Shown in pieces: positions 1,366-59,700 of a DNA stretch of 64,000 nucleotides (its first letter is position 1; the number at the start of each line of letters is the position of its first letter). The notes under the pieces were generated by a model. That model saw only the letters and a list, made by a program, of their open reading frames with translations. It was not told the DNA's origin and did no database searches. The translations under genes were made by a program, and so were the position numbers. The DNA comes from Moniliella sp. 'wahieum' (lineage: Eukaryota): positions 806,001-870,000 of the forward strand of contig RSEE01000010.1 of the NCBI GenBank assembly GCA_003971905.1, read 5' to 3'.

Positions 1366-1447
1366 GGTTCCATATTGTAGTTGGTTAGCAAGTAGGATTC
1401 TGATCTTTGAAATTCCTGAAACCTGGGTTCGAATCCCAGTGGGACCT
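1366..1447 (+). tRNA. tRNA-Gln (anticodon CTG) with a 9-nt intron
   Basis: Cloverleaf: acceptor GGTTCCA/TGGGACC, D-stem TTGT/GCAA, anticodon stem TAGGA/TCCTG with loop TT-CTG-A, intron 1404-1412, T-arm CTGGG-TTCGAAT-CCCAG. A T-run (Pol III terminator) follows at ~1449. Confidence 0.92.
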
Positions 1448-2947
1448 GTTTTTGCTATCTTGGCTTTTTTGTTACTTTAGGCGTCCGGGGGGGGCGGGGG
1501 GGGGGGTGGCGGCTACGGGCAACAGCAGCACAGATGAGTGAGCCTGGTGGGCGCAGCGTTTCTTTGTCCCGGCGTTAAGCTCTGTGAACGATATACATGC
1601 AACAGTAGGGTTGGATATGGAGATAAACGTGGTCAACGTATGAGCACAGGCAGAACCATCTCCAACGAGACTCTTCTCGGCTAGGCTGGCGCTGATGTTG
1701 GTTCCTCAATGCAATGTCTGTGCTGATGTGGCCAAAAAACAACTATAACATATCATTTCGCACGCAGTTTCCCTCTTAGCTGGCAAAGTAGTATTCTCTC
1801 ACGTCATTAACATGTTGCCATGTCAAAGAATATAACGGTTCTGGGGCACACCAGCTGCTGTATGCGGTCCTGCCGTTCTTATCAACACACGCACAAGTCC
1901 ACCTTTTGCATCATCATAATATGGACACGTGTGCATGGAGATGTTTATCGGTGTACTAAATACCTATTCACTTTCACAATGAATCCGCATGAGGATTGAC
2001 GGTCGGACCTCGTATGGAACTCCGTAGTGACCTTTTCGACCCGCGTACAACCCAAAGGCACTATCTATCTCCGCGATAGCACTTGAAGCTTGACACGAGA
2101 GAAAAACAGTAAAGAATCCAAGGCTGGGGGCCAGTATGAGAACTACTCCATATTAGGAACCCGGACCATATGCAAAGGTCGGGCAGGAACACCGCGGAGA
2201 GGTGTGTTTACATGAAGCTGAAAGGCACGTCATCCACGCAGAGCTGGAGAGATACCAGTACAATATAATGGAGATTTTGTTTGCCATATAGGATCAATGT
2301 TCTTGACGTATATGCCGTCGTTAGTACTTGTGGAGAGGATTGACATATGGACCAAGTTAAAGCCGACAATGAGAGACTCTCCGCCTGCTGGATGTGTTCC
2401 GTGTGGGGACGACGGACAGATTGTTTGATGGCAAAGTATGAAGCAACAGGGACATAACCTCGTTACAGAAGAGAGAGAGAGATAATATAACAGAGACTAA
2501 ATTCATATGGTACCTGAGTTATCCGCAGGGCAGTTGCCACTATACAGTGTGGCTGCTCGTGATATAGTCGGACTCAGTGGAGTTATCAAGCGTCAGGCCG
2601 TCAGCAGTGGAAAGAGACAAGAACATTCATACAGCAGAGCAGTCAATATATTGCCCTTTCTCAAATGTGGTGGCGTGCGCCGTTCACTACATTCACTCGA
2701 GATACTCGCACAAATGGTGTATGTATTAGTGTGTGTGATGCATGATACACAAATTAATGAGATGGTGTCATTGCCATATTTTCCTCGAATATCTGTTTGC
2801 AGTGGTCGGCCCCCCTTATTTTGGAGAAGAGGTCAAGATAATCGGAGTTAGGACAGGGCAGGGTATTATCATGCGCTTGTGGTCCCTAGTATAGTATCTA
2901 CTTCTATCCTCACAATCATCTCTATAAAAGCACAGATCCAGCCGACC

Positions 2948-4530
2948 ATGGCTACTGCACACACCGCCCACGCCCCACACCATTCTCCACCATCATGGCC
3001 CCACCAACCCTCACTGCGGACGCCCCGCCGCTCCCCACACGCTGGCATCCACCCCGGTTCAGCCGCTGGTTGCTCCCACCAAGAGTACACCCGCCACCGA
3101 GACCCAGGCCCCGAAAGAACAGCGAAGGAGGTTGCCCCCGTGATTGCGACCGAAGTCGCAGACGTCAAGGGTAAGGACCAGTCACAGGTTCCTATCTGGG
3201 CGCGCATCTACTCTGTTTCTCAGCCTCCTTTCGAGAAGGCCTCAAAGGGCCATCCTTTGGATGTGGTTCCCCCCACCGCGAGTGAGAAGAGCCCCGAACC
3301 ACAGCCTCGGCGGAGGAGGTGGCGCAACGCAAGAAGGAGGTTGATGAGCTCAATGCCCGCAACGCCACAGCTAAGGCATTGGACGAGGAGCACAACGAAG
3401 GGTATGCCTATAAATGGGCGCTCCTTGGTACGACCAGCGCTTCCAGAGCAAGTGGTACAAGCAGGAACACATCCCTCCCCACGAGCACCATGACCCCGCC
3501 CTGCGTGCACTTGCTCACCCAGACCCGGAGGCGTTCCTTCACAAGGATGGGATCCAGGTTGAATCTCTCTCCCTCGGTTGGCACCGCGGTCCGTGGACCT
3601 GGGATCAATTTGGCCCGGTGACGCCCGATGAACTCGACGAGCTAGCCCTCTTTGTGACCCAACGCGGCGTGGTCACGTTTGAAAACCAACAGGAGTTTAT
3701 CAACTCGGGCCCGGAGAAGCTGGTGGAGTTCGGAAAGCACTTCAGCCAAGTGCTGCACCACACCCCGTTGCCCTCAGAAGTCAAGGGCTTCCCCGAGCTC
3801 CTACCAATCTACCGCTCCGACACCTACAATGTGGTCAAGCCGGCGCTCAAGAGAAGCCACGGTACCAATGGTGAGTTGCCACATTTTCTTCCCCCTCTTT
3901 GCTTATTCCCGTTTCTGACCGTACACACTCGCTCAGGCTGGCACACGGACATTACATTTGAAGCCCAGCCTCCTGGCATCACCACCCTGCTACTCTTTGA
4001 CCCTCCCGAGAGTGGGGCGCGACACTGGCTTTGTGGATTCCGAGGAACTGTACCGTCGCTTGTCGCCCTACCTTCGCAAGGTTCTTACGGCCTTTCTGCT
4101 GAACACGACTTTTTCAGTCAGCCTGGCCTGGTGCGAGCCTTTGCTGAGCGCCCGCAGAAGCGCACTCCTGTTTCTCATGTCCATCCGCGTGCGCACCCAC
4201 CCGGTCACAGGGCGCCAGAGCTTGTTTGTGAATGAGAACTTTGTCACCCGCTTGGTCGAGCTCAAGGACGAAGAGTCGCAGGCCCTTCTTACGGTGCTTT
4301 CCAACTTGGCCTCGAAGGCGCACGATGCGCAAGTGCGCATCCGCTGGCGCCCCGGCTCGGTCACCTTGTGGGACAACCGCCGGACTCAGCATCGCATCAT
4401 CCATGATGTAGTCGAGGGCCGGCGCCACGGCGTTCGCCTTACGCCTCAGGCGGAGCGTCCCTTTTACGTTCGTACTTCGTACGACGAAGATCTGGAGAAG
4501 GAGGACAACGCTGGGACCACACCTGCGTGA
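2948..4530 (+). CDS. TauD/TfdA-family Fe(II)/2-oxoglutarate dioxygenase (sulfonate dioxygenase-like), frameshifted
   Basis: Motifs spread over several frames: 'LALFVTQRGVVTF', 'GWHTDITFEAQPPG' (HxD), 'VRTHPVTG', 'LWDNRRTQH'. Intron ~3871-3937 (GTGAGT..CAG). TATAAAA at ~2923. Confidence 0.88.
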
Positions 4531-4812: not shown

Positions 4813-6936
4813 TTATGGTAAAAATACATGCCAATCGACCTTACGAAACGACTCGAGTCCATACGCACTCATTGTCCCGGCCAACGCAGCCCCAGGTCCG
4901 CGCCCGAGTCGGGTTCCGTGTCGTCCTGAAAAGCGGCCCACTGAGCAAGTGTTGGTGCGCCAAATCGTGGCACCAACGCGCGCGGATGTGGAAGTAAGGG
5001 TGCGGGGACACGGTGAGCTTCGAGTCGAGCCCAGTCCATCTTGGTGTCCTGGTGAGGAGCACTGGGGGGATCGGATTCCTGAGCTCGTCTGCAAACCAGG
5101 CATGGCGCATAACGTCCTCAATCCCGCCAGAGAGACTGCCCAAACGGCGGCGTGGGTCAGGCTCAAGGAGACCCGCGATGAGGGGAAGCTTGTCGCATGG
5201 GGAGTCCCTCCTCCCGAGGAAAGGCCCGCTGGAAGTAGGAAAGGCAGCCTGCACCGCCCCTTCAACGTCCACTTTTTCGATCCCACGGAGGATGTTGGTG
5301 TACACAGGGGATGAGGGCACTGGGTGTACAGGAGGCTCCCTGTTGGGGGCAGGGTCGGCGGGGTGGGGGGAAGGGGGTGGGACATGGCCCTGTTCGTCGG
5401 TGGAAGACGAGAGGCCAGATGGAGAGCAGGAGACATCCGACCTGGAGGAAGACCACGATACTTGGGATCCAGCCTTCCGTGGAGGACCTTGTACGGAAAA
5501 GGGGGTGAACCCAGCTAGCATCTCGAACACCAGCACACCCAGGGCCCAAAAGTCGACGGCTTGGTCGTGCGGGCGCCGAAGCACCATCTCAGGGGCCAAA
5601 TACTCCTCCGTGCCGCAAAGGGAAAACGTACGACCATGGACCATACGGGGGGCCGCCGGCTCCCTTTGATCAACATTGCTGCTCGAAGCTGATCCCAAAG
5701 AAGGGGATGCGGGCTGGACCATGTCCCTTGGTAAAACTCTTTTCGCCAATCCAAAGTCGCACAACTTGGGATACCCATCGGCCCCCAAGACAACATTCTC
5801 TGGCTTAAGATCGCGGAAGATGATGTGCTCATCGTGCAGATAGCGTAACGCGAGGAGGATGCAGGCGGTGAAAAACTGGGCTTCGTCTCCACGAAGGTGA
5901 CCTGTGGGCAAGTGGCGAAGCAAATGAAACAGATCGCCTCCTGGGATGTACTCGAGAACAAGGTAGCACCGTTTGGTATCTTGTCCAGACGCAAAGTACG
6001 ACACCACCGATGGGTGGTGTAAGGTCGACAGGAGACCCGTTCTCGTAATGTATTCTCCATCTGGTTGAGTTGGACGATCCGGCTCTTAGATGACCTTAAC
6101 CGCATACAGTTGGCTCTTGTTTCCATTTTGGGGGTGACTCGTGCCGGGGTCAACAGAAGGACGTGGCCAAAGGTTCCAACGCCAAGACTTTGAAGCACTG
6201 TAAGGCGACTCAGCTGAATTGGTCGGTTGTTGTGAAGACAGGAAGCTGCGGAGGGAGAAGACGTGGACGCTCGCGGGGCGGGAGGACAGGCCAAACCGAA
6301 TGCACCGCCGCGTCGCCATGCGCTTTTTTCATCCCTCTGTTCCAAGCGATGAGCTACTTGAACTATCGTGGGGGTTGGGAATGGCAGAGCATGCTGGACG
6401 TGCAGTGGTGGTGGTAAGCAAAGGTTGTGGAGTCGATCCTAATTGCTCCGAAAGAGCATCTCCCCGGGCATTGAGCTTGGTTGGAGTAGATTCCTGATGG
6501 GTCAGTGGAAGCGCGGCGAAGGAATTTGGAGGGGGGCAAAGAGGAGCCAAGGTGATCAGGGCGGCGTTTTCGGGAGCCAGAAAGGCAGGGGCAGAAGTGA
6601 GTGGGAAGAGAGGATGCCAGCGTCCTGGGCCCAGGCCAGGCACTCAGAGTTAAGCTGGGGTATGACCGAGGCCAGGCCCAGCTGGGCACGTACGCGATCA
6701 CGCAGGTGGAGGGGAATGTGCCTGGACGGTAAGGACCACAGAGGGATGTAGGGGGCGTTAGCGGCCATAGCGGCGGTCCGCTCCAGCAGGGCCTGGTCGG
6801 CCTGTTGGACGAGGCGGTGGAGACGCTGTTGCAAGGAAGGGGGCAGGGCAGGGGGCGAGGAACTGGTGGGCGCGATAGCAGGACTGGATGCGGAGGGGAC
6901 ATCGCCGGTGCCAGGTGCCAAGGCCACGGCCGACAT
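4813..6936 (-). CDS. AGC-family (PKA catalytic subunit-like) Ser/Thr kinase with a long low-complexity N-terminus, frameshifted
   Basis: 'LGVGTFGHV', 'YAVKV', 'LEYIPGGDLF', 'IFRDLKPEN', 'CDFGLAK', 'SLCGTEEYLAPE', 'DFWALGVLVFEMLAG', and an AGC-like tail 'DWARLEAHRVPAP' in a shifted frame. Both ends are uncertain. Confidence 0.85.
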
Positions 6937-9878: not shown

Positions 9879-11879
9879 GGAAGCGGGCGGCTGAGTGGGA
9901 GTAAAGGGATGGCTTCCGGGTCGCCGCGTGTCGAAGGAAGAACGGCGGAGGCGGGGGGGTGGGACGGACCATTGAGCGGGGCCGGGGAGGCTCCTTTTAG
10001 GCAGTGGCGTGTGGCGGCGCGGCAAACGCGTCCAGGCCCCTGCGGTGGGATGGCCGCGTACAGCAGAATTTGGGGGGCAGGCATCAACCGTCAAGCTTCA
10101 GGCGCGTGGGCTCGAGGCTGGCCACGCCGGATGGCGTGAGCCATTTTGCATACTCCCGCCGAGCCGCCCGCGCGCCAAGGCACTGCTCTACAATTCATTG
10201 CTCACAGCCTCTATCTGATCGGACCGGTGCATCCGTCGCACTAAGCAACATTGAATTTTGCCCACCAAGTTCTATTTCTTCGCGTCCGCACCGAGCGAGC
10301 AGCGAGGACGCCCATGATGCATGATGCATGAGCGAGACGCGTGATGTCGCACACCATGCGACCTGTGACGCGTGAGTGTGATGCGCAGGCGCCCGAGCGG
10401 AGGCGCGGAGACGGAGACCCCAGTTGCGTGTGCCTGCTGTGCCTGGCTGGTCTGGTAGGTATGCTATGCCAGGCATCGACCGTCTGCGCTCCTCTTTTCT
10501 GCTGCCTGGAATGATCGATGCGATGATGCAGAGGATGCTAGGGTGAAATGCTCTCAAACTCACACCCTAGTAGTTATTGATGAGAAGACGCAAAAAAATA
10601 TTCTCCGCGTTTGACCCCTTGGGCCTAGGGCCGCTGTGTGGTCTCTCCGGCCTCGGCCCCCCACAGACCACAGACCTCGGGTCCCTCCTCCCCCAGGCTA
10701 CCCCTCCGCACAAGTCACTCAGGGACTCTCACCTCTCAGCCACAGCCTCGACACCTCCCGCATCGCGCGCCTCGCCTCTCACAAAGTCACACCAGTCACA
10801 GACGTATGGCAGGGCGTGCGTTCCAGGCCCTCTCTCGCCCAATCCAACTGTCGCCACAGTCCGTACTTTGATGAGAAGTGGGTTTTTACAGAAGCGTATT
10901 CTTATGGGCGCCCCTCTGCTATACTCTTTTTGGGATCACCTGTCACATGTCACAGCATACAACGACTGTTCTGTTGTAACATATGAAGCAGTTCATTTGC
11001 TTCGCTATAAACAGAACCTTTGGGACGCTGTGCACTATGCTACGGCGCGGTTCTTTGCGCGTTCCTTTGTATTTCTTTTCGCTATAGCTATAGTTAGTAC
11101 ACCCTACCCTATATATGGGGCTGTAATGCGACACGCACTCATGAAGCTTCAAAAGGTTCTACTTCAACCGTTGACCGTGTACACCAACAACGTTCAACCT
11201 CAGTCCTTAGGCCATCAATGTTGCCTCAGGCCCTTTTGGCAAAGCATCGTCCATCGCACAGCCCTCTCCTACTTTCCGGTAACCAGGATATAACCAGCAG
11301 GGGCATCGGAGAGATACAAATAATGTGAGACGCTTTCGTGACAGATGCGCCCTGGGGCCTGGACCTCCTTTTTGAGTATAGTGCCGCAGAAGCCTCAGGC
11401 TGAGGCCTCGTGTGACATGTGAGTGTGACACATGCATGAGGAATGGGTGCAATCTGATCTCGATCTCATGCATCATGCACCAGCATCAATATTCATATTC
11501 AACGTCAATGGTGGGGTATGAATGTAATGCACTTTTCAGCCAGTTGTTTTAGGCGTATGGCCTCCTGTGGCATGTGCGCATGAGCCCCCTGGGCGCAACG
11601 GCCCCAGTATTGCACAGTGCCTGAACGTTGAACGTCCTCAAGCTGAGGCCCTGAGGCCCTGAGGTGTTGAGCCGGGTGGCTTGTGCTTTGGCCTATGTCC
11701 CTTCAGTTCCACTTCAGGCCTAGGAGTTCCGTTGTTTTCTCTCTCCTGTTTTTTCCTTGTCCCGCAGCTTAGCCCCTGAGGCCTGATGGCGACTCGCTGC
11801 TTGGTGTTCCTCTGTAGGCTTTACTGGCTGCCACACCACCACCACCAGTGCGATTGCATCACTCTTGAGGACCACATCC

Positions 11880-12575
11880 GGACTACAGATCTCATCATGC
11901 ATCATGAATCATTAATCATGAGGCTTTAAGCTTTAAGCTTAAGTCCTTAACCCTTAGGCCTTAGGCCTTACGGCCGGGCCTTAGGCCGTAACGTCCGGAA
12001 CTTCTGAATCGATCGGAATACGTTCAGCTATACGTTGACATGGTGACAGCATCTCAACGCACAGGCCTCCGACCTCCGGGACTCAGGTACTGACTCAGGT
12101 ACTCAGGCCTGAGCGCGCCCTGAGCCTCAGTCCAGACTCCGGCCTCAAGTTGACCTCAGGTACTCAGAACTCAGTGCACGCAGTACAGACCATTAATCTA
12201 ATCGGTCGCATGTTAGCGGCTTCGCGTTAAGGCTTAGCGCTTAGCACTTATAAACTTAACCCCCTAATAGGTACTTCGCCAAGGCTCGTCACGCGTCACG
12301 CGTCACGCGTCCGCGTCACGTGTCACATGTCACATGTCACTAGTCACTAGTCACTGCGACCCTGCTCACCGGTCGCATGGCCACAGACCGCGGGTCACGT
12401 GGTCACTAGGATCACTGGTCATCGATCACCTCATCAATCAACCGGTCATCGATCGGTCATCGAACATCATGCATCACCGGTCAGCGTCAGGGCCAGCGTT
12501 TGGCCTGCGAGCGCGTTTCCTCGAGGATCGAGGATCGATGATCGATGGTGGAAGGCGATGACCGGTGACCGGTAC
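11880..12575. repeat. Cluster of tandem 7-mer odd palindromes (xyTNAy'x')
   Basis: CATCATG x2, CTTTAAG x2, CCTTAGG x2-3, GCTTAGC x2, CGTCACG x3-4, TGTCACA x2, AGTCACT x2, GGTGACC. Confidence 0.85.
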
Positions 12576-13173
12576 CTGGCTCTCAAACACAGTATGGCTT
12601 GGCAAAAAATGTTGTATGGTGGACCGCAGGCGGTGGCACAGAGGTTCACCTAGCTTACTTCTGGCAGCAGGTCTTTTGGTATCCACAGCTATGGTGTGTT
12701 CTGGAATCGGGAGGGTGGAGAGGCGCATTGCGCTCATTCATATGTCTGGGTCATTTACTTGGTTGTCCCGGATCTGCCCCCTGAGGTCTTAAGAATAACA
12801 ATAAGCTTTCAGTAATCGATAATCATTAATCATTACTCTTCTCTGGGCCGTTTTCGATGGAGCAAGGCAAGTATAGATCTCCCCTCTTAACGTGGATTTT
12901 CGAGTTTGGGGGGTCAAGTCATCAAAGCCTATGAACGCGTCGGTTCTGGAATTCCCCCAAGGCGCTATTTTCCACGCACGTTGAAGCAGATCGTGTATTG
13001 GCAATCAGATCACAGGCAAAAGAGATAAACGATGGTTATATACGCGATGTTCCTGGGGCAGGTAGGTGGGAATAGGCAATTATTGCACAGGGCGACAACA
13101 TCGCATGCAGTCAAGTGTGGAGCGGCGGTGCCTTGCGCACTTGAGCGCTGAGCATAGGAGGGAAACAGGTTGA

Positions 13174-15018
13174 TCACAGTTGGGGGCGGAGGGCTTGGGT
13201 GTGCTGTTGCAGCTCGGCTGGGTCGGCCGAGTCGTCAACCCAGAAGTTCCGCGCATTGTCAAGTTCCTCTCCGTCAATCCCGACGGACATGACGGCTGGG
13301 TGCTTGCTAGGCCGTCCATGGGGCAAGAGCGGGCGCCGATCCAACCGATCTTGAAGTTGGGCCAGCGTTGGCATCCGCCCGATCCGCATCAACTCGGCCG
13401 CCTTCATCACTACCGGGTCCCGACCCATACTGGCCACCGCAACAATCCGGCCTTGACGGTGGTAGTAGGCGACAAAGCGCAAGTCCTGCACCTGGCCATC
13501 CAGCAAATGCCATCAAAGCCCGGGCCCGTGCCGTCCGACGCGTACCGCAGCGCCGCGCCGAGCGCCGACCAGAAGATGGGAATGCGGTCAAACTTGGCCG
13601 TCGAGGGCAGCTTGCCTGCGATCCACTCGCCGACAAACCGGCCGTGGTTCGAAGCAACATTGTAGTGCTCTGTGCGGCCCAGTTTGGCGCCGTCGCGCGT
13701 GGGCGCCGTCGCAATGTCTCCAATGGCAAAAATTCGGTCCGTGTCAAGACCTTGCACTCGCATCGCTGCATCCACCACGACACTTCCGTCGCGTTGAAGC
13801 TCGGGGAATCCCGGGGTGGCACGGAGGTACTCGGTCGCAGGCACCACCCCCACCCCCACCACCACTTGCGCCGGCAGACGCACTTCGGCGCCTTGCTTAT
13901 CCTTGATGATGACGGCGCTTACGGTGCCCTTGTCATCGCCCTCAAAGCGCACCACACCCGCTTGCATGTAAAACTGAATCAGCGTCGTCTCCTCCAGGAC
14001 GGAACGGATGCCACCACCGACTTGGGGACCCAACACGCGCTCAAACGGCTCCGTCTCCATCCCCACCACCGACACTGACTTGGCGCGCTTTTGGGACGCA
14101 AGTGCCACCGCCGCCTCGCACCCAATGAACGACGATCCAATCACGACCACGTCCCGGTCCCCCTCATCGCCCAGTGCTTTGGTCAGCATGCTCACGTCCG
14201 AGATGCCGCGCATGGTGAGAATGTTGCCCAGCTGGCCCTCGCCCAGCTTGGCTCCAGGCAAGGGCAGCCGCCTCGGCGTACCGCCCGAGGCAAGGACCAG
14301 ATGATGGTAGGGCACCGTAGCCCCGATTCCAGCACCACTTGGTTCTGCTGTAGGTCGAGGCGCACGACCCGCGACTCGATGAGCAGTTTGACCTTGAGCA
14401 CACGCTCAAAATGGGCAGGAGAGCGCCACGTGACTGGGCCGCGCTGCCCACCAACGCTTTGCTCAGCCGTGGCCGATCCACAGGGGGGTTGGCCTCGGCG
14501 GTGATGATGGTGATGCTGCCTGTGTAACCGGCGGCGCGAGCCGCCTCAGCGACATTCAACGCGCCCGGTCCGCCGCCCACGACGACAATCCCGGGCGAAG
14601 GGGGGGCGTGGCGGCGGCAATGGCGGAACCTGGGGCGGCGGCCGGAGCGGGACCCTCAGCTTTGCCCCGCAGCAGCTCCGGATCAGCTTGGACGAACACT
14701 TGGTCGCCCTCAATGGTAAGCGGAAGCGATTGGAGCGGGTTGAGCGCCGGCGCATCTTCTATGTCGCCCGTTTGTACGCGGAAGCACGCGCCGTGCCAGG
14801 GACAGGTCAGTCGGCCGCTCTTGGTCAGCACGCCGCCAGTCAAGGGAGCGCCATAGTGCGTGCACTTGGCCGATGTCGTACAGCTTGCCGCCGGCCGGGT
14901 TGGAGATGAGCACCTGCACCGCATCCTTCTCCCCAGGCAGCTCGGCAAACGGCACGGCGACGGCATGGCCAAGCGGAATGTCGCTCACGCGGGCAACACA
15001 GCGCGTCTCGACGGGCAT
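13174..15018 (-). CDS. Apoptosis-inducing-factor-like oxidoreductase (Rieske 2Fe-2S domain plus FAD/NAD pyridine nucleotide-disulfide reductase), frameshifted
   Basis: Rieske motifs 'KCTHYGAPL' and 'TCPWHGACF'; 'GGGPGA'; 'DRPRLSKAL'; 'VIGSSFIGCE'; 'FAIGDIA'; 'EHYNVASNHGR'; 'PIFWSALG'. The 3' end is approximate. Confidence 0.88.
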
Positions 15019-16120
15019 GGTGGGTGCGCGGAGACAAGGAGGAGGTGGGGGTGGGGGACGATGGGGTGGCGATGGATGAGGGCTGTGGGGAAGACGCAGC
15101 TGGGCCGTGATAAAAGCAACGCAGGTCGCCAATCCGATCATCCGAAGCGCCGGGCCAGCGGGGATTGCCCCAGTCCTGAGGCCCAGGACTCAACTGAGTT
15201 TGAAAACGGATTATGGATTTCCGGACGGCAAGCGCGTTGCAACCCGGCGGCCCCGGCGCTGGTCGAGTAACGATTGGACATTGATATTGGGCGCTCGGCT
15301 GCCACCGGCTAGGACGCCTCCATTATCAGTACGCAGTACCCTCGGCAGAAAGGCCGCGGCAGCGCGCCTGCCAGCCATTGGCCAGGCCAACTCCGCTGAA
15401 CATTTCACACCGTCTGCTCAGTACTACGCCGTACTCGGCGGTCGATTAATAATCGATGGATGGCGGATGATCAATCGCTCGCCTCCACTGCTCCACTGCC
15501 CCTCCGGCTGAGGCCGCACCGGCCTCACCGCTCACCGCCTCGCCCGCACACGCCGGGCCCAAGGCGGCTCTCGACAATCGCAGGCAGAGAAGGAACTGGG
15601 TACTGGCTGCCCTCCAATAGCGCGCACCAGCACATGTACCGCATACCTCCTACAGCCAGCAGCCGTCTGTCTCTACCCTCAGTACTCCGTACTTACTTGT
15701 CGGCTTTGCGAACTGGGCGCACGTCAAAAAAACACCAAACGCCCTTCTCCGCCGGTAGGGCGTCGCTAACTGAGCCGACGTGGCGCGTGATGCGTGACGC
15801 CTGCCTTGTCGCGCTTTCCGCGCTTGTCATTTTCTCTCAGAAGGACATGTCATCGCACCATGCGTGCGGCTGGCAAATCTCCGAATCGCAGGCGCCCTGG
15901 CGCCGCACAAGCCAGCTGAGCCGGTACGTAAAAAGGATGAAATGCAAACACATGAAAACAACAGGGGGCAAAGTAAACCCAATGGACGCGCAGCGTGGCC
16001 GCGAGGAGGGGGAGGGAAGCAGGTAGTCGATAGAGAGGGAATGGGAATGGGAAATGGGAGGGGGAGGGAGAAAGGGTTCAAGTTCAACGTTACAACGTTC
16101 CAATGGTCCAACCATTCAAG

Positions 16121-19100
16121 TCAAGCAGGTTGGTACCCATCTTCCAACCGAGCTTGGCGTCGATCCAACTTACGTTGTTTCCGTTTCTTGTGCGACACGA
16201 CCGAGTGGGCCGTCTCGGCAACGCGGAAGGCGCGTCGCGCCTTGGTCTCCTCTTCCACCACCACGCGCCGTAGCAGCGTTGCCAGCGGCACGCCCCGCGT
16301 CCGACTCACCGACTCGGTGCGCAGGGCCGGCGCAGCTTCCCACTCGCCATCTCGCTCGCGCTCACGGTCGCGCTGCTCCGACAGACGGGGGAGGAAGAGC
16401 GAGCTACCGATCGCACTGGAGGAGGAGGAGAGCGGGTTGGGAGAGGCCTTGGGCAAAGGCCCTTCCCAGCGCAGGTCCAGCTGCCCTTGGCCCGGCGGAC
16501 CGTACCACGACGAGACAAAGGCCGGTCCGAGCCAGTCGAGGGTATGCGCCAGGTCGAGCCGCTGGGCCGGGTTGGACGGTAGCCACAGGTACCGGTCCAA
16601 GCGCGAACTGTGGGCCGGGGTCGAGTAGCGCGCCAAGTCGTCCGGACGGTCGTCCCAGATGATGGGCGGGTGGGGCCGGGCGAGGGATTTGGGTTGGGCA
16701 GAGGCAGGCGGCGAGATGACCAGTTTGGGAAGCATAAACGACGGTCGATGCTTCGGGTCAGTACGTCCTTCCTCCCCGGTTGGCGTCAAGGGGGAGATGG
16801 TGACCGGAACCAAGGTGGCTTCGGAAGGCGGTTGCTAATGGCAGACGCATGCGTCGACACGGACCAAGGTGGTGTGGCATGTGGCTTGACATCCCACTTT
16901 TCTTCGTCCCACGGATCGGCCTCCCACTCGCGTCCCCCTTCTTGTACGGGGAGAGGGAGCGGCTGGGGGCCGGTTGCGGAAAGTAGAAGATTGGTGGTAT
17001 CCTGTTCGCTCCCACGGATCGGGGGGCAGCTGCCCGCGTGCCTTCCGGCCACGAATGCCGAGACGCACATCGGATTCAGAAGCGGGATCCCACTCCATAT
17101 CGTCCGAGCCTTCCTCCTCATCGTATATCCTCCGTTCATGAAGAGAACGGGCACCCATGGCTGACGCAAATCGGTCGAGCTATGAAACTGCGGGCGCGGC
17201 TCGTCACGGTTCGTCTCGGCTGCTTTGGACTTGAAAAAGACGTGCCTGGCAGCCCAAGTGGCCACCACCGAACGAATCACCGCCGGCGCCTTGGTATCCA
17301 GCTGGATCTGACGCTCCTCCAACAAGTCCCGTCGAGGCGTCGAGTACAATAGAGAGACCCATCCAGGCGAATCAATGCCGTTGGCACAAAACAGGTCAAG
17401 CCACCGATGGAAACGAGCCCAGCGCGAAGGCTCCCTTGGCACCACTGGGATGCGCTGGGGGAACCGGCCGGCGGCCCGTGCGTCTTCAACTCCTTCTCGG
17501 GGGAGGAGGTCCTCGACGTTCATTTGAGGATGATACGCCTCCCTGAGTTGGACCCAGGAGGGAAGCGTGTCGATACCGCAGATGGCATTCGCTTCGTCGT
17601 CGTCCAAAGAACGGCATTGAGAGACCCATAGACGCGTTCCGACCAGCTTAATCACTGCTGTACAGGGGATCAGACCGATGGTGAAAATAAGATACACGGC
17701 ACGCTCCTTGGTCACGGCAAAAAAGATGGCCAGGACAACCTGAGCCACGATCAATCCGTCCAACGAAAAACGTAGCATGCGCTTCAGGTAGATCTGCCCT
17801 TGGTTTTCGTGGAAACGACTAAGGTAAACATAGGCCAGGTCTTTCTTGAATACGACTCTGTAGTTTTTTTAAAAAAAAGGCAAGGTCAGTACGTCCCCAC
17901 GAGGAAAAAAGTCAAAAAGGCACACGTACAAAGCGCACCAAAGGTATACCATGGCAAAGGGGATGACGAGTGGATTGAAGATGGCAAAAATGAATACGAT
18001 GGTCATGACGGTCAAATGGAGTGGGAGCCAAATCGCATGACCAAATTTGCGCGGCAGTACCTTTTCCGTGCGTTCGCGTGGCGAACGCGCGCCCACCGCT
18101 TGGGCCGCTTGCCACAGTCCAATCACAGCTTGGATCAATCGGCACCCGTTTGGGTGGCAATGTGAGCATCAGATAGGAGCAGAAAAAGGGTGCGGCGGAC
18201 GGAAAGGCAAATGCGATCGAGGTCAAGACGGATCCTTGGTGGCTACTGTCCACACGAACCAGAATCGTCTGCAGCGTGGTGGCCCCCACGGAAAACAGGA
18301 TGACGGTGTTACAGACAACAAACTTCCAGTAGCGACACAGACACTGGTCGTAAAGCTCGGTGCGAGTAAAGAACCGATGAGCCCGCAGGTGGATCTGGAA
18401 GATGAATTCGGGCACGAGCAACATCACCCCGATACGATCAGGGTAGGCAGAGTACCCGAGACAAAACGCAGCCAGGCCCTGTGGTCGGAAAATGCCGAAT
18501 CGTGATTGTAGGTATGGGTGATACCGCCAATGTTGTTGAGCACCGAAGCAGCCGCCTGGGTAGGAATCATCCAAAAGACGGTGAACAGCCAGAAAAAGGT
18601 GCTTACCCCGAGACTGCGTACAATCTTCCAGCCAGGGTCGTGTGCATGAGCCGGTCCCAGATGATGTCCCTGCGCTCGGGGGCGAGGACAATGCGGGGAG
18701 CAACTTGGTCGCTGAGCTCACGCCAAACAAGCCTTGCTTGGCGCGGGTCACGGAAGGTGACAAACGCGACCGGTGGCGGCCCACTGATTGGCCGGGAGAG
18801 CACGCGCCGCGTCCACCAACGCATTGAGCAACTTGAACTTGGTCACGAGCAAGTCAATTGTTGGCACCACATCCCCCTTGTAGGTACCCGCCGTGAGCCT
18901 TGTGACGGGCTGGTACCGGTCCAACAGAGGCCGAGGCAGGGACAACAGTTCATGCCAAAAAGAGCACTTGGCGTCGGGTGCGAGGGATGACGTGACGAAC
19001 CGAGCGAGCCGCTGGGCAAGGACCATGTCGGGACTCGTGTTCTTCTCGGGTGGTACGGCAGAAAAGGCAATAGCCCGAACCGAACGGAGCACGTTCTGGG

Positions 19101-20221
19101 CGAGCTCCATGTGGGCCAACTCGAGCTTCGCAAGCGCCGCATCCCGTCGGCTCACGAGCCCATCTAATTCCGCCATCTTGCGCACAAACACGACCGACTG
19201 GACGGGGGAGGGAAGGATGGTCCTGCCCGTAGTGGTAGGGGAGTAGGTGGCCCACCCGGCTGGGCCAGCGGGCACGCCCAAATGCCGCTCGATGAACGCT
19301 GTTAGTGCCTGCTCCTCCCGCATGGGCCGCGGCAGGTTGGAAAACATAAGAGTGCGCTGCCGCCATCCCGCCATTTCAGGGTTCCTTTGAGCCTCAGCGA
19401 CGCTGTAGAAGGATGGGCGGGATCATCGCACGGCCAGACTGGCGCGCCAACTCGTCGCACAGCATGCTCTATTGTTGGTGCAGCAGCACGGGCGAGCGGG
19501 TCGTCGGGCGGCGCACGGCATGTGGGCCCTGGAGAGTACGGTGGCGCAGGCGGAGGATGAGATGGCGACGGGTTCGCACACGACGCCGCGGGCAGTCCAA
19601 TAGAGAGCACATACCCAGGAGAGAGTGATCCAGTACATAATCAGCAGGTGCACCCACAGCCAGCGGCGGCCCTGGTGGTTTTCAGTACGGACACAATCGG
19701 GCGCGGACAGGTTGGAGCACTTGGAGCGGTCGACGGGGGTGGTGACGAGGTAGGCGAGCGAGGCGCAGGCCATGTCGGTGCGGGAGTCGCAGTCGCTGAA
19801 GCGCATGTGGATGGCAAGGAGGGCGGGGAGGGTGGTGAGGAGCTGGAGGAACATCCACCACGTGGCGGCGCGCATGAAGCGCACTAAGTCAAGGCGTCGA
19901 TACCGACGTGGGTGGCATACCACCAGTCGCTGCGCATGATGGCGGGCCAGATCCAGAGGAGAGGCCAGCGCGGCAGGGGAGGGGACGGCGCAATAGCGTG
20001 GTACTCGCGTGGGGTGTAGAGGTGGGCGAGCTCCCAGCGGTCGGGTTGTCTGGCACGGTGGGTGGCTCGGACGAGAGGCGCCAGCGCGGGAGGCGGCGCA
20101 GATGGCGCGACGTCTCGTACCAGCCCACACAGACGATGGCGGCGGCGCCGAGGATGTAGGCATTGGTGGTGAGGCCGGTGAAGTCGGAGGTGTAGAATTT
20201 GCGGTTCTCCAGGTCGGCCAT
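16121..20221 (-). CDS. OSCA/TMEM63/CSC1 (RSN1, DUF221) Ca2+-permeable stress-gated channel, frameshifted and spliced
   Basis: Start MADLENRKFY... followed by a TM segment; 'WLWVHLLIMYWITLSW'; 'RTLMFSNLP'; 'AFVTFRDPRQA'; 'LAPERRDIIW'; 'AAPFFCSY'; 'IFNPLVIPF'; 'RFSLDGL..AQV'; C-terminal 'WDD..LWLP'. Confidence 0.85.
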
Positions 20222-23200: not shown

Positions 23201-23499
23201 CACGTGTTGGGTTGGAGCCACTCTTTTTTCGCGGGCCGCGGGGCTTCTCACCGCAGCAACTGTGTGCCTGAGACGCCGCTGTCCTATGTACGTCCGCCAG
23301 GCCCGCGTGTGGGGTACCAAAACGGTCAACGGGTCATGGTGACCGGTGAAAGCCTAAAAAGATCATCAAGATCATCGATCGACGAAGGCCCCACATCAAA
23401 AAGAGATGAAGAATCGATTGACGCGAGCTGGCGAGGCCTGCCCATCGGGAAAATGCGTTGAGTACGTTGCATACTACTGAGTAGTAGGGTGAATCAGGG

Positions 23500-24110
23500 C
23501 ATGCTGAGTAACTGAGTACTGATTAATGATTGTCGATTGGTGGCCATAGTGGCCGGTGAGTCGCGAGCTGAGCCTCAGCGATGACGATGATCGATGACCA
23601 GCGATCGGTGACCAGGGGTATGATCGGTGAAGAGAGGTCTGAGGTCCCTGAGGTCCCTGAGGCGCTCAGGCCTCAGGCTTGAGGCCTGCGAGGCATGTGA
23701 GGCTCAGGCGCTCGGGCTCAGCGCTGAGGAGTTGCACACGAAGAGCATGATGCATGATGAGATCGAGAGACGAGGACGCCTGCCAAGCGCCCCCCTAGCT
23801 CAACCATAAGTCGAAAACTCTGAGGCCTGAAGATTGGCAGCCTAAGGCCTAAGGCCTAACCTGTGGTCTCATTAACAGACCCCACCAGATCTAAGCCCGG
23901 CCGATACCATTGCATAACAATTGTGTGTGATGCCGAAAGCATGAGGATGCACATGCGGAACGAAGCTTACTGGCCTTACGTTGTGGGCCTTTGGGACCTT
24001 AGGCCTAACATTGGGCCTAGGCCAAGGATGCAGATGTGGGACGCAGGAAAACGGCCCTGGAAAGAGCCTGTGTGACATGTGACATGCGACATGTGACATG
24101 TGTACGACGG
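23500..24110. repeat. Cluster of tandem 7-mer odd palindromes
   Basis: CCTGAGG/CCTCAGG runs at 23636-23690, CATGATG x2 at ~23746, CCTAAGG x2 at 23841, TGTGACA-based run at ~24071-24100. Confidence 0.75.
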
Positions 24111-24939
24111 AGACAGATCGCCAGGGACCCGTTGCTGGGAGTGTATGGGACACAATCGATCCTTTGGGCTGACGCGCGCTGACGCGCCAATGCTTCCGAG
24201 TCGAGCAGACTGCGCTGCTGTGACACAGCGGATGTGGGGAAGGTGCAGACTTACACTGGCCCCACGCCTCATCTGGTGGTCAACACACACTTCCCCCCGC
24301 GGTGGTATGTGGCCTCATACAGGTCCTGGGGAGGGCAGTGTGCAAGTTTGGCCGCTCATTGTAAGGCATCGATGCTTCAATATTAATAACGCGGCGCGGT
24401 AACGTTTAACGTGTATCGGCTACCGTTTTAGACGTCGACAGTTGCTAGTTGCCGCCAAATGATGTGGTGCACCACATTCGTTAACCACCCATGCGGAAAC
24501 AGAACGTCCACGTTGGAGGCATATGGCTGTCCCATAACGTTCTTATTGCCGTGTGTGGCATCTTCTCACAAATCACACAACGTTGCCAAGCCAGCACTGT
24601 GGCCAGGTTAGAGGCATGCCAGCCACGCCGCCACTGGGCCTCGGCTGGGGGACACGGAGGAGCGCGACCTTGATGACAGAAACTGTTATCGAGACGACGA
24701 ACGTAACACCTTCACAGTCCTGTAACACCCAAAGAAGGAAACCGAACGGTGACTCGTACAGCCAACGAGGTCGTATATAAATCTCACTCAGTTCTGGTGC
24801 TCGTCGTTTCTCCTTTCCCCTCCACCACCCATCTTTCCATCTTCCCTCCCCCCCCCCTTCACCACTCTCTTTCCCCTACTCGGGCACACCTCCGTCGACG
24901 GATCACACTTTCTTTTACCATACGTTCTCTCTGCCGCCC

Positions 24940-26487: not shown

Positions 26488-27273
26488 GGCAAACAAATTT
26501 CTCTGCCTGTTTCTCTTCTCTTTTGTTTTTCTCTCGATCACATCGAAAGAGAGAGCTCGTACTTGTTTTTGTTTTGCTCCCCGACTATCCCTTTTAATGT
26601 GGTTTATGTATGGAGCCCTGGTGGCTCTTAAACCTCCAGGATCCAATACCATAAAGTGTGACATGTGTTTTCCGTTTAGTATTGTGTACGGTTCTCCCCC
26701 TCTACTCTGTGCGCCCTTAGGAAAATATAGATGGGGGTTATTAGGCAATACGTGCACCAGTCGCGACAACGCTGTGACGATACCATCAGATTATACGCTC
26801 TGACCCATTCTCCCGGCGTTACCAACACTGTAGTGGAGCGGAGTACGCCCTTCATATTGATGCGTGGCGCGAGGGCTTCACTAGTCACTCCTCGTTTCCA
26901 TGAAGAGCTGTCGGACATCAAGAAGATGCGAAAACCTTTCTGTACTTATCGGCGGGATCGATCATGAAAAACCTTGGGGCGTCACGTTCCCTGGCCGCTT
27001 GATGAATCCCCGGGATCGCGTATGTGAGGCCTCTGCTCGTACACAAGTGGCAATGCGCTACCGGGGCTTGCACTCGCCGTGAACGTCCCGAGCGGTGAAC
27101 GGGGCCAGTACCATCGCGTGGCTATATTTTGTTCCAAATACCGGTAGTTTGAATAGACTCAAAAAGTGAAAGCAAGTGGCACGTGAACTTACGTACGCGG
27201 CCTATACTGCGTTGGGAGCGGAGCCACGAGCATCGCGTTGGCATTATGGGGGCAGCAACACCCAAAACACAAC

Positions 27274-28275
27274 CATGGTCGCAGGCGAGGCGCCATCGCC
27301 CATGGCTGGTGCCAGTCCCGCATCGCCCAAGGCATCGCCGGCAGCCCACGCGTCTCCGCACTTGCCCGCATCCGGACGAACACCCGCCACCGCTCCGACG
27401 CCCCCCGCCCTCGCCCCCCTGAACTCCACTAACACCCCTCCTCCTGCCGGCCCGGGCGCCCCTGGTGGAGGGTGGGACAGCAGATCTCGCCCCCACGGCC
27501 GCTGTTGCGGCCGCTTCTCTTCCCCCATATCCAACAGGGCTTCTGCCGCTGGCGCCAAATGCGCCGTCCGAAGGATTGAGCCAGGTGTTTCAGCTGGTGC
27601 TGCAGCAGCTTCTGCCCGCAGTTCAAGCCACCTCCAACTCGCTCTTTGACGCGCTTGCTGTACCGGCAGAGACAGAGTCTGAAGCGCTCATGGCTCCTAC
27701 CCCACCCCTCCCGGATGCAGCAGCGTCCAATGCAGTGCAACTGCACACCTTCCTCTCTTCGCTCTTACAGCTTCTGTTGGAACATGGTCTCGCTGGTTTG
27801 CCCACCGTTTCCTTTCCCCCCCCTCGGCCGATCCTGAGATCATGCAGATGACCCTCTGCCCTCTGCCTCGCTCCCTCAAGACCTTCCAAGCGCTACGCAA
27901 CAGTACGCCGCTCGAGCCAAGCGCGAATTTGACAAGACGCAACGGTTGCGGGATGCGAGCGAGATTGTACGGGACGTGTTGGTTGGAGCACGGCTCGCCA
28001 TGGCCGGGGCAGAGCGGGCGAAGAGTCAGGGGATTCGTCGGAACAGAACGCAGGGCTTCAGGCCGATCGAGAGGGCCCTGTTCCGAAACGACCACGAGGA
28101 AGTTCGCCCGCCCCCGACGCTGGTAACTCCGCCTCGGCCCGGGGCACGGCCGCCACGTCGACCCCGGCGTCAGGCGTTCAGATCACAAGGATGTCTCCTC
28201 CAACCTGAGAGCAAAATGAGGGCACTGCGTTCCTACGACATTGGCCGTCCATGCATCGTATCGTACATGATTTGA
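27274..28275 (+). CDS. Hypothetical Pro/Ala-rich protein, frameshifted
   Basis: Consecutive overlapping ORFs (27176-27649, 27465-27851, 27946-28275) join into a protein-like sequence with helical segments ('LSQVFQLVLQQLLP', 'LHTFLSSLLQLLLEHG'). No family recognised. Confidence 0.45.
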
Positions 28276-59624: not shown

Positions 59625-59700
59625 TGTCAAGCTTCAAGCTTCAAGCTTCAAGCTTCAAGCTTCAGCTTCAACGTTCAACGTTCAACGTTCAACGTTTAAC
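59625..59700. repeat. Tandem heptamer array CTTCAAG x4, then GTTCAAC x3, then GTTTAAC
   Basis: CTTCAAG x4 at 59632-59659, GTTCAAC x3 at 59673-59693, GTTTAAC at 59694-59700. Confidence 0.9.

What the first reader, a model, noticed from the sequence alone, without database searches (positions are those of the whole stretch)
11880..12575. Intergenic DNA built from many different 7-mer palindromes that share one rule, x-y-T-N-A-y'-x'
Seen: tandem heptamers CATCATG, CTTTAAG, CCTTAGG, GCTTAGC, CGTCACG, TGTCACA, AGTCACT and GGTGACC lie side by side. At 12287-12355 the unit changes CGTCACG > TGTCACA > AGTCACT in near-continuous 7-bp register. The sequences differ, but each is an odd palindrome with a central T-N-A, and the outer bases change in complementary pairs. 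Simple slippage amplifies one unit and does not by itself explain compensated changes between units. Inference: either a symmetry-generating mutational process (fold-back or template-switch repair at T-N-A) or selection for a structural or dyad-binding signal in promoters, origins or nucleosome-free regions. I do not know of a description of this rule. Short overrepresented intergenic repeats do occur in smut-related fungi, so novelty is unproven.
Basis: partly seen in the sequence, partly recalled or inferred. Interest (0 to 1): 0.8.

Follow-up and report, generated by a model that had tools for sequence, protein, structure and literature searches.

The report
Self-symmetrising 7-base insertions at T-N-A
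The non-coding DNA of this smut-related fungus is peppered with 7-base additions at T-N-A sites, each partly a direct and partly an inverted copy of its neighbour, and these build palindromic repeat arrays by a process I could not find described.

Summary
In the window, 27 of 46 exact 7-bp tandem arrays are 3+1+3 palindromes, and 26 of those have a T-N-A centre. A-N-T, G-N-C and C-N-G centres sit at expectation.

The new result is the elementary unit. It is a 12-mer, xyTNA·y'x'·xyTNA: five bases repeated directly, with a 2-base inverted copy between them. It occurs 86 times against 0.4 expected. It is strictly tied to T..A (86/110 against 46/798 for the other 15 classes) and to period 7.

Most copies are one-sided (40 of 66 runs). 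The unmatched side shows only chance similarity, so they were born that way and are not decayed two-copy arrays. They avoid coding DNA (1 of 66). Heptamer arrays from 122 metagenome loci lack the rule.

Best reading: a mutational, symmetry-generating 7-nt insertion. The likeliest route is a 7-bp staggered break centred on N, repaired through hairpinned ends (transposon-footprint-like), then amplified. The enzyme is unknown. Ten literature searches found no description.

The parts
11893..11990 (.). Run of T-N-A units in 7-bp register: CATCATG x2, AATCATT, CTTTAAG x2.6, CCTTAGG x2.7, then degenerate copies
   Evidence: chain of 10 T-N-A in register from 11905 to 11970; folded as ssDNA, z -5.2
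12232..12245 (.). GCTTAGC x2, a perfect two-copy array matched on both flanks
12287..12355 (+). Composite array CGTCACG x4 (one copy lacks a base), TGTCACA x2, junction unit, AGTCACT x2. The centre base is C on the + strand throughout
   Evidence: ssDNA fold -15.8 kcal/mol, z -3.8
12335..12341 (+). Junction unit TGTCACT. It is one point change from TGTCACA and is the inferred target of the event that produced AGTCACT
   Evidence: sequence; inference from the event form
12400..12490 (+). Decayed chain of TCA spaced by 4 (occasionally other) bases. It includes TCA-TCGA-TCA and TCA-TGCA-TCA-CCGG-TCA
12521..12573 (.). TCGAGGA x2.6 (a mutated, non-palindromic derivative), GATGATC x2.1, GGTGACC x2.1
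10313..10331 (.). CATGATG x2.7, matched on the left flank only
11400..11664 (.). TGTGACA copies, CATCATG x2 (11466), GTTGAAC x2 (11622), and CCTGAGG repeated with a 1-base spacer (11643-11664)
12809..12835 (.). TAA-TCGA-TAA directly followed by AATCATT x2.3
23338..24102 (.). Second hot stretch with 11 T-N-A/4-base-palindrome/T-N-A runs, including CCTCAGG, CATGATG, CCTAAGG x2.9 and TGTGACA x2+2
59627..59698 (+). The longest arrays: CTTCAAG x5.4, then GTTCAAC x4.3
   Evidence: ssDNA fold -18.5 kcal/mol, z -8.7
2082..2093 (+). Example of an isolated one-sided elementary product, CTTGA·AG·CTTGA, outside any array
26878..26889 (+). Example of the mirror form, TCACT·AG·TCACT

Best explanation
The arrays are products of mutation, not selected sites. 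SHOWN (formal event): wherever the structure occurs, five bases xyTNA recur 7 bases further on, and the two bases between them are the reverse complement of xy. This gives xyTNA·y'x'·xyTNA, or its reverse complement TNAy'x'·xy·TNAy'x'. It creates one perfect odd palindrome, xyTNAy'x', out of an arbitrary xy. Only T..A, only period 7 and only a 2-base (or 3-base) inversion show the effect. INFERRED (direction): each instance is a 7-nt gain at a pre-existing xyTNA site. INFERRED (molecular route, my favoured one): a dimeric DDE-type enzyme makes cuts 7 bp apart, centred on N of nnTNAnn. This produces a 7-bp target duplication abTNAcd | abTNAcd, as transposon insertion does. Removal of the insert leaves hairpin-capped flanks. 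Opening each hairpin 2 nt from its tip gives two self-complementary 4-nt overhangs, cdd'c' and b'a'ab. If one overhang is kept and the other clipped, the joint is automatically 14 nt long and reads TNA-cdd'c'-TNA-cd or ab-TNA-b'a'ab-TNA. These are exactly the two one-sided forms seen. If the target is already palindromic, the two overhangs are complementary and ligate seamlessly, giving a perfect second copy. Palindromic units then multiply into arrays, helped by ordinary slippage. A single point change at an array edge followed by one more event produces a new, fully 'compensated' unit. I put about 0.8 on the formal event being a mutational 5-direct + 2-inverted insertion, and about 0.35-0.45 on the staggered-break and hairpin route.
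For: The perfect 12-mer occurs 86 times (both strands) against 0.4 expected. One-mismatch forms occur 86 times against 7.3. Among 5-nt direct repeats at lag 7, the spacer is the inverted first two bases in 86/110 for T..A, against 46/798 for the other 15 base pairs at those positions. In the 4-direct + 3-inverted count, z=T gives 104/381, A 2/351, C 3/436 and G 8/420. The geometry is fixed: k=2 (period 7) gives 86/110, k=1 4/24, k=3 0/13, k=4 0/2, k=5 0/1. No other period from 5 to 12 exceeds chance. Of 66 runs of T-N-A/4-base-palindrome/T-N-A, 21 match on the left only, 19 on the right only, 13 on both sides and 13 on neither. On the unmatched side complementarity is at chance: 6/40 and 9/40. 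Point-mutation decay of two-copy arrays would leave half-matches, so these forms were born one-sided. Inversion always comes from the xy side. Of the 24 T..A repeats lacking it, 0 carry the other possible inversion. That fits a symmetric 7-bp site and not a 5-bp duplication. The two T-N-A share the same centre base in 73 of 83 pairs, so the copy is direct. The reconstructed targets show a weak dyad: C 20/40 at -3 and G 16/40 at +3. Two-sided forms (13) exceed the roughly 1/16 expected from random targets, as the sticky-overhang step predicts. Runs avoid coding DNA: 1 of 66 lies in Pfam-supported ORFs, which hold 27% of the bases and 550 of 2468 T-N-A sites. Runs are clustered: per-kb mean 1.03, variance 4.59. 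Precedents from papers: hAT excision forms hairpins on the flanking strands and has symmetric target preferences (passages). Galileo makes 7-bp duplications with the odd-palindromic consensus GTANTAC, and that paper states that transposon target motifs are palindromes centred on the duplication (passages).
Against: No element is visible. There are no terminal-inverted-repeat pairs or dispersed repeats in 64 kb, and no transposase family among the 108 of 158 ORFs of at least 135 aa that I scanned. I know of no hairpin-forming superfamily with a 7-bp duplication: hAT has 8, Transib has 5 (recalled), and the 7-bp P-superfamily elements are not known to leave hairpins (recalled). About one run per kb is a very high footprint load for a repeat-poor genome. 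Other products the model allows are not seen: both overhangs kept (2 of 117 T-N-A pairs at that spacing), a 1-nt opening offset (127/524, at chance), and plain 7-bp duplications of non-palindromic T-N-A targets (24 of 110, about background). The route therefore needs a very uniform repair outcome. The direction of change (gain rather than conversion) is not polarised by any outgroup. Everything rests on one window.
Confidence: 0.45

Rival explanations
1. Nick-initiated fold-back copying without a double-strand break or a transposon. A site-specific nick falls 2 nt 5' of T-N-A. Strand-displacement synthesis re-makes xyTNA. The new 3' end pairs with the T-N-A of the displaced flap (T-N-A pairs with itself at two of three positions) and copies y'x' up to the flap's 5' end. 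The 7-nt loop-out is then ligated in, as in hairpin or flap models of repeat expansion.
For: It yields exactly xyTNA·y'x'·xyTNA and explains why the inverted part stops after 2 nt. It needs no element, which fits. The one-sided forms and the same centre base in both copies are predicted. A high density is easier to accept for a host process. The arrays fold well as single strands (z -3.8 to -8.7), which would help later expansion.
Against: Self-pairing would work as well or better for G-N-C, C-N-G and A-N-T, and none of these shows the effect. The fixed distance of 2 nt still requires a sequence-specific nickase that is not identified. A 2-bp stem with a 3-nt loop is thermodynamically negligible. 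The excess of two-sided forms over random targets is not predicted.
Confidence: 0.2
2. Hairpin-favoured slippage only. Palindromic heptamers that exist by chance are duplicated and expanded by replication slippage or unprocessed hairpin flaps, and no new symmetry is created.
For: Arrays of up to 5.4 copies exist and form stable ssDNA hairpins. Mutated, non-palindromic derivatives such as TCGAGGA, AGCTTCC and TGTGACG have also been copied, so some unit-blind amplification does occur. The number of single T-N-A palindromic heptamers outside arrays is close to expectation (236 clusters against 161-208 expected occurrences).
Against: It does not explain the one-sided 12-mers: 40 of 66 runs, with the unmatched side at chance. 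It does not explain T-N-A being favoured over the more stable G-N-C and C-N-G. It does not explain the fixed 5+2 structure. A general property of polymerases should appear elsewhere, yet 120 of 131 TCA-heptamer arrays in 122 metagenome loci have no palindromic 4-mer at all, and only 171 of 3352 T-N-A pairs there do.
Confidence: 0.1
3. Selected function: dyad-symmetric sites for a dimeric DNA-binding protein, or a structural signal for promoters, origins or nucleosome-free DNA, multiplied because more sites work better.
For: The sites are confined to non-coding DNA and clustered. Some lie just upstream of genes, for example 33886-33918 before the KDEL-receptor gene. T-N-A with C at -3 and G at +3 looks like a weak half-site consensus.
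Against: Eleven of 16 arm pairs are used. No protein reads 'any two bases and their complement'. Sites lie in 3' as well as 5' intergenic DNA: 11400-13300 is downstream of the gene at 13413-15189 on the minus strand. The one-sided 12-mer has no rationale as a binding site. Avoidance of coding DNA is equally expected for any 7-nt frameshifting insertion.
Confidence: 0.07
4. Footprints of a PIF/Harbinger-like element with a 3-bp T-N-A duplication. Each insertion-excision cycle leaves T-N-A plus two bases from each inverted terminus, which would always form a 4-base palindrome.
For: T-N-A (usually TTA/TAA) is the target duplication of that superfamily (recalled). 3+4 = 7. Inverted termini would make the 4-mer palindromic by construction.
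Against: The 4-mer would then be fixed by the element and unrelated to the flanks. In fact 53 of 66 runs have a flank matching half of their 4-mer, and 14 different 4-mers occur. The centre base follows the supply of sites: C+G in 30 of 40 events, against 1813 of 2468 sites. It is not biased to T/A.
Confidence: 0.03
5. Assembly or library artefact.
For: No independent reads could be examined.
Against: The arrays are 12-38 bp, far shorter than any read. An artefact would not avoid coding DNA (1 of 66 runs against about 15 expected from the share of T-N-A sites). It would not show a graded series of decayed copies either (86 perfect, 86 with one mismatch against 7.3 expected).
Confidence: 0.02

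Closest known systems
Excision footprints of hairpin-forming cut-and-paste transposons (hAT) and P nucleotides of V(D)J coding joints
   Same: A fixed-length direct duplication of the target, combined with a short inverted copy of the bases next to the break. The target preference is symmetric and mostly free of sequence (nTnnnnAn, nnnTAnnn; passages). The flanks are hairpinned at excision.
   Different: The duplication here is 7 bp, not 8. The inverted part is an even palindrome (y'x'xy), whereas hAT hairpins are recalled to carry one unpaired tip base. No element is present in 64 kb. The outcome is almost invariant, and the footprints themselves become preferred targets and grow into arrays. 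I did not find that in print.
7-bp target-site duplications of Galileo/1360 (P superfamily), consensus GTANTAC
   Same: A 7-bp duplication whose consensus is a 3+1+3 palindrome with a free centre base, inside a longer palindromic target motif (passages).
   Different: That consensus is one specific sequence with an A-N-T centre, and it flanks a resident element in Drosophila. Here only T-N-A is fixed, the arms vary and are made complementary by the event itself, and the organism is a basidiomycete fungus.
Microsatellites and heptanucleotide simple repeats
   Same: Head-to-tail copies and copy-number growth. Neighbouring arrays differ by point changes.
   Different: Ordinary heptamer arrays obey no palindrome rule: 120 of 131 arrays have no palindromic 4-mer, and locus L049 has 93 period-7 arrays with inverted spacers at chance (59/1305). 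Here the unit is constrained to xyTNAy'x', and 1.7-copy forms are as common as arrays.
Quasipalindrome correction, hairpin-flap duplication (FEN1-type) and in-vitro hairpin elongation of palindromic repeats (all recalled, none read here)
   Same: Templated changes that perfect an inverted repeat, and hairpins that promote duplication.
   Different: Those processes have no fixed 7-nt geometry and no T-N-A requirement.
Bacterial REP/BIME extragenic palindromes
   Same: Short palindromes that fill intergenic DNA, often in clusters. They are thought to be spread by a dedicated transposase-like enzyme (recalled; one title seen in the listing).
   Different: REPs are 20-40 nt family-specific sequences in bacteria. 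Here the units are 7 nt, of many sequences, in a eukaryote.

Membership tests
Simple tandem repeat (microsatellite) formed by slippage | Head-to-tail copies of one unit | tested here: met
   27 palindromic arrays of 2.0-5.4 exact copies; TRF rows
Simple tandem repeat (microsatellite) formed by slippage | No constraint on unit sequence, and growth only from an existing repeat | tested here: not met
   26 of 46 arrays obey xyTNAy'x'. 40 of 66 runs are one-sided 1.7-copy forms. Control arrays elsewhere lack the rule
Transposon target-site duplication plus hairpin-type excision footprint | Direct duplication of one fixed length | tested here: met
   Only period 7 shows the effect
Transposon target-site duplication plus hairpin-type excision footprint | Symmetric target motif centred on the duplication | tested here: met
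   T at -1 and A at +1 are obligatory. C 20/40 at -3 and G 16/40 at +3. Inversion arises only in the way a site centred on N allows
Transposon target-site duplication plus hairpin-type excision footprint | Short inverted (P-type) copy of the flank at the joint | tested here: met
   The 2-nt spacer is the reverse complement of the adjoining 2 nt in 86/110
Transposon target-site duplication plus hairpin-type excision footprint | An element with inverted termini and a transposase in the genome, with some copies still flanked by the duplication | tested here: not met
   None in the 64-kb window (108 of 158 ORFs of at least 135 aa scanned). The rest of the genome could not be searched, so this is open genome-wide
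hAT superfamily footprint | 8-bp duplication | tested here: not met
   Period 8 with a 2-nt inverted spacer: 12/140, at chance
Transib/RAG-like footprint | 5-bp duplication | tested here: not met
   Period-5 form 161/2718, at chance. A 5-bp reading of the 12-mer would need inversion from either side, but 0 of 24 show the other side
P superfamily (Galileo/1360) target site | 7-bp duplication with an odd-palindromic consensus | tested here: met
   Form met. Compared with the passages
P superfamily (Galileo/1360) target site | Consensus GTANTAC, flanking a resident element | tested here: not met
   The centre here is T-N-A, not A-N-T (A-N-T 0/25). No element was found
PIF/Harbinger 3-bp T-N-A duplication | 3-bp duplication, with any filler independent of the flanks | tested here: not met
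   53 of 66 runs have a flank matching half of the 4-mer
Dyad-symmetric transcription-factor site | One conserved half-site sequence | tested here: not met
   11 of 16 arm pairs occur among 26 arrays. 14 different 4-base palindromes lie between T-N-A pairs

The most novel reading that the evidence does not exclude
A lineage-specific, still undescribed enzyme cuts nnTNAnn with a 7-bp stagger. It could be a cut-and-paste transposase of a new kind or a domesticated one. Through hairpin-end repair it writes self-complementary heptamers into non-coding DNA at about one site per kb. Each product is a better substrate than its precursor, so the process seeds and grows palindromic microsatellites and builds intergenic DNA de novo. 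It would also be a natural record of how this fungus opens and joins hairpin ends.
Probability: 0.4. Interest if true: 0.85.

Novelty: new variant of a known kind. Interest (0 to 1): 0.72.

Why it matters
If confirmed genome-wide, this is a mutational signature with unusually sharp rules: one trinucleotide, one length, one inversion. It turns arbitrary sequence into perfect odd palindromes and then into repeat arrays. It would show one concrete way in which microsatellites and short palindromes are born, rather than merely expanded. It would point to an unknown nuclease or transposase with a 7-bp stagger, or to an unusual end-joining habit in Ustilaginomycotina. It also warns that palindromic motifs over-represented in these promoters need not be regulatory sites. 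The prediction is directly testable by comparing close strains, where events should appear as +7-nt presence/absence differences at xyTNA.

Tried and rejected
- Whole genome: none is held for this window.
- Sequencing runs: none was listed for 11400-13400, and no RNA holder was listed. No read-level check was possible and read laying was not used.
It gave no clear relative of this fungus and served as a negative control only. In L071 an ordinary GTCACTT microsatellite drifts into AGTCACT; this is not the same phenomenon.
- Search for the element: the inverted- and direct-repeat scans show nothing transposon-like. No transposase domain was found in 108 of the 158 ORFs of at least 135 aa. The other 50, mostly overlapping frames of the same genes, were not scanned.
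- A home-made codon-usage coding map was too noisy to use. I used Pfam-supported ORFs instead.
- Other products of the hairpin model: a 1-nt opening offset shows no signal. Both overhangs kept occurs in 2 of 117. T-N-A-T-N-A tandems number 52, with no suitable control, and were not pursued.
- Other k in K+TNA+rc(K)+K+TNA, and periods 5-12: no signal except period 7.
- Rfam and tRNA scans: nothing in the region, only tRNA-Gln at 1366-1447.
- Literature: ten full-text searches found no description of T-N-A-centred palindromic heptamer arrays or of the 5+2 insertion. The Tilletiaria anomala genome note, read in full, says only that less than 1% of that genome is repetitive. Subscription journals and supplements were not searched.
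Full report
WHAT THE WINDOW IS

The window is eukaryotic and fungal. An AIF-like flavoprotein ORF (13410-14405, minus strand) has its best named relatives in Tilletia (53-55% identity), followed by other Ustilaginomycotina. Unnamed proteins reach 59-62% (lineage of Tilletia). Pfam hits place genes at 150-983, 3414-4527, 4844-6085, 13413-15189 (minus), 16124-20670 (minus), 24753-26375, 29613-30614, 31669-32280, 33919-34893, 37007-37909, 39959-40882, 41729-43387, 51107-52911, 54555-55136 and 61940-63114. The finding lies in a gene-free stretch of about 3 kb (10250-13300), downstream of the minus-strand gene that ends near 13400. No Rfam family or tRNA lies in it.

Autocorrelation in 11880-12575 peaks at lag 7: 0.456 against 0.18-0.29 at neighbouring lags.

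The window has 48 exact period-7 arrays of at least 2 copies, against 6 of period 8, 4 of period 10 and 0 of period 11. I dropped two arrays whose unit is a single repeated base. Of the remaining 46, 27 are 3+1+3 palindromes, 26 of them centred on T-N-A.

T-N-A-centred palindromic heptamers number 293, against 161-208 expected under three Markov orders. The other three centre types are at expectation. Between two T-N-A seven bases apart, the four intervening bases are a palindrome in 83 of 195 cases. The background is 6.2%, and the other centres give 3/127, 24/462 and 29/386. Hexamer palindromes of the form A-N4-T are enriched even outside exact arrays: 237 against 182±10. Other 4-, 6- and 8-bp palindromes are not.

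IT IS NOT A GENERAL PROPERTY OF HEPTAMER REPEATS

A scan of a metagenome collection for six TCA in 7-bp register returned 122 loci holding 131 such arrays. Of these, 120 have no palindromic 4-mer, 8 have one, 2 have two and 1 has four. Over all those loci, 171 of 3352 T-N-A pairs (5.1%) enclose a palindromic 4-mer, against 43% in the window.

THE ELEMENTARY UNIT

I collected the 66 maximal runs of T-N-A/4-base-palindrome/T-N-A and asked whether the two bases outside each end complete the palindromic heptamer. The result was left only 21, right only 19, both 13, neither 13. About 7 of the 'neither' class are expected by chance (my estimate).

If these runs were decayed two-copy arrays, the failing side would usually keep one of its two bases. 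Instead, complementarity there is 6/40 and 9/40, which is chance level. A decay model also fails on numbers. The ratio of one-mismatch to perfect forms suggests about 7% divergence per site. That would leave some 75% of runs two-sided (my calculation), not 13 of 66.

The one-sided form is therefore the primary product: xyTNA·y'x'·xyTNA. The right-only form is its reverse complement. Read as an event, an xyTNA site gains 7 nt, made of 2 inverted and 5 direct. The first heptamer becomes a perfect odd palindrome whatever xy was.

HOW SPECIFIC IT IS

- The perfect 12-mer occurs 86 times (both strands) against 0.4 in shuffles. One-mismatch forms occur 86 times against 7.3, and two-mismatch forms 220 times against 98. 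The series suggests a process spread over time.
- Among 5-nt direct repeats at lag 7, the spacer is the inverted first dinucleotide in 86/110 when positions 3 and 5 are T and A. It is so in 46/798 for the other 15 combinations; T..G, at 9/47, is probably decayed T..A.
- In the 4-direct + 3-inverted count, only z=T is enriched: 104/381, against 2/351, 3/436 and 8/420.
- The arm length is fixed. K+TNA+rc(K)+K+TNA gives 4/24, 86/110, 0/13, 0/2 and 0/1 for k = 1 to 5.
- No period from 5 to 12 other than 7 exceeds chance.
- The centre base is copied directly: it is the same in 73 of 83 pairs. It follows the supply of sites: C+G in 30 of 40 events, against 1813 of 2468 T-N-A sites.
- Inversion comes only from the xy side. 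None of the 24 T..A repeats that lack it has the alternative inversion of the last two bases.

BIOLOGICAL REALITY

Only 1 of 66 runs touches Pfam-supported ORFs. Those ORFs hold 27% of the bases and 22% of the T-N-A sites, so about 15 runs would be expected there. This is what purifying selection against a 7-nt frameshift predicts, and it argues against an assembly or library artefact. The runs are strongly clustered (per-kb mean 1.03, variance 4.59). The hot stretches are at 10-13 kb (23 runs), 23-24 kb (11), 33 kb (4) and 59-60 kb (7).

HOW THE FINDING REGION READS UNDER THIS RULE

The stretch 12287-12355 is CGTCACG x4 (one copy lacks a base), TGTCACA x2, TGTCACT, AGTCACT x2.

TGTCACT differs from TGTCACA by one base. 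One event of the mirror form on it gives TGTCACT·AG·TCACT, which is the observed AGTCACT. Being palindromic, AGTCACT then doubles exactly.

The step from CGTCACG to TGTCACA needs a C-to-T change at the CpG between units, followed by one event. The 'compensated pairs' are thus one point change plus one symmetrising event.

Amplification that is blind to symmetry also happens. TCGAGGA, AGCTTCC and TGTGACG are mutated units that were copied. Slippage therefore contributes to growth, and the arrays fold well as single strands (z -3.8, -8.7, -5.2; one composite stretch only -1.4).

MECHANISM (INFERRED)

A fixed length, an obligatory T..A around a free centre and a weak C/G dyad at ±3 look like the target of a dimeric enzyme cutting 7 bp apart around N.

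A duplication combined with a short inverted copy is the classic mark of a target-site duplication followed by excision through hairpinned flanks. hAT elements do this, with 8-bp duplications and symmetric, nearly sequence-free targets (passages). A 7-bp duplication with a 3+1+3 palindromic consensus (GTANTAC) is documented for Galileo (passages).

Start with a 7-bp duplication abTNAcd | abTNAcd and open each hairpin 2 nt from its tip. The ends then carry the self-complementary overhangs cdd'c' and b'a'ab. Keeping one and clipping the other gives the two observed one-sided forms, automatically 14 nt long. A palindromic target gives complementary overhangs and a seamless second copy. That would explain why two-sided forms (13) exceed the roughly 1/16 expected from random targets, and why arrays feed on themselves.

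A 5-bp duplication with the same chemistry predicts period-5 products, which are absent (161/2718). It also predicts inversion from either side, which is not seen (0 of 24). The hAT length fails too (12/140). A 3-bp Harbinger-type duplication plus element-end remnants fails the flank test.

WEAKNESSES OF THIS ROUTE

- No element or transposase is seen in the window, and the rest of the genome could not be searched.
- I know of no hairpin-forming superfamily with a 7-bp duplication.
- The density, about one run per kb, is high for footprints.
- The repair outcome would have to be remarkably uniform. Plain duplications of T-N-A targets are at background (24/110), both overhangs kept occurs in 2/117, and a 1-nt offset is at chance.

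A nick-and-fold-back route gives the same product without an element. It does not explain why only T-N-A works, and it still needs a site-specific nickase.

I put about 0.8 on the formal event being a mutational insertion, 0.45 on the full favoured statement, 0.2 on the nick route, 0.1 on slippage alone, 0.07 on selection, 0.03 on Harbinger-type footprints and 0.02 on artefact.

NOVELTY

Ten full-text searches and the one genome note I read in full gave no description of the rule or of the 5+2 insertion. The library omits most subscription journals, so absence from print is not proven. I file it as a new variant of a known kind (target-duplication and hairpin footprints, or templated insertions). 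Its self-reinforcing, palindrome-writing behaviour has no counterpart that I could find.

LIMITS

The analysis rests on one 64-kb window. There is no outgroup to polarise gain against conversion, no reads, and no genome-wide search for the enzyme.

Noticed in passing
L049:1-5063: A metagenome contig (GC 0.62) whose non-coding DNA is almost wholly 7-bp tandem arrays of dozens of different, mostly non-palindromic units. It has 93 exact period-7 arrays covering 1658 of 5063 bases, and 23 of period 8. An array is often followed by the array of its reverse complement, e.g. CCCCTGA then TCAGGGG, or CCACAGA then TCTGTGG. Inverted spacers are at chance (59/1305). This is a separate 'everything in sevens' phenomenon of unknown origin. 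Pfam gave no family for its ORFs.
   Followed up: partly
window 11643-11664 and 23639-23662: The palindromic heptamer CCTGAGG repeated with a 1-base (period 8) or 2-base (period 9) spacer. xyTNA direct repeats are mildly raised at periods 8 and 9 (25 and 36, against 6-19 at periods 5, 6 and 10-13).
   Followed up: partly
window 45467-45530: A perfect 16-bp repeat x4 (ATGTCACACATGCCAC) built from TGTCACA-like pieces. Nearby, 44848-44913 is a perfect 33-bp duplication.
   Followed up: no
window, 19 non-palindromic period-7 arrays (e.g. 108-125, 10661-10676, 27852-27867, 35374-35388): Even without the palindromic class, exact period-7 arrays (19) outnumber those of period 8 (6), 10 (4) and 11 (0). 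Some general tendency to 7-bp duplication may exist in this genome too.
   Followed up: no
window 20229-20327 and 20574-20602: G-rich (GGGGGC)n-like runs and their C-rich complement, about 300 bp apart, form imperfect inverted repeats at the 5' end of the RSN1/PHM7-like gene. GC reaches 0.72 here.
   Followed up: no
window 33017-33062: Three T-N-A/palindrome/T-N-A decamers packed within 46 bp (TCATCGATCA, TCATGCATCA, TGATTAATGA), about 25 bp upstream of a TATATAA-like motif at 33086.
   Followed up: no
L071:880-1100 (reverse strand): An ordinary GTCACTT microsatellite that drifts by single changes into AGTCACT and AGTCAAT units. It shows that a palindromic heptamer array can also arise by plain drift in another organism.
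   Followed up: partly
window 1366-1447: tRNA-Gln (CTG), the only structured RNA gene found in the window.
   Followed up: yes
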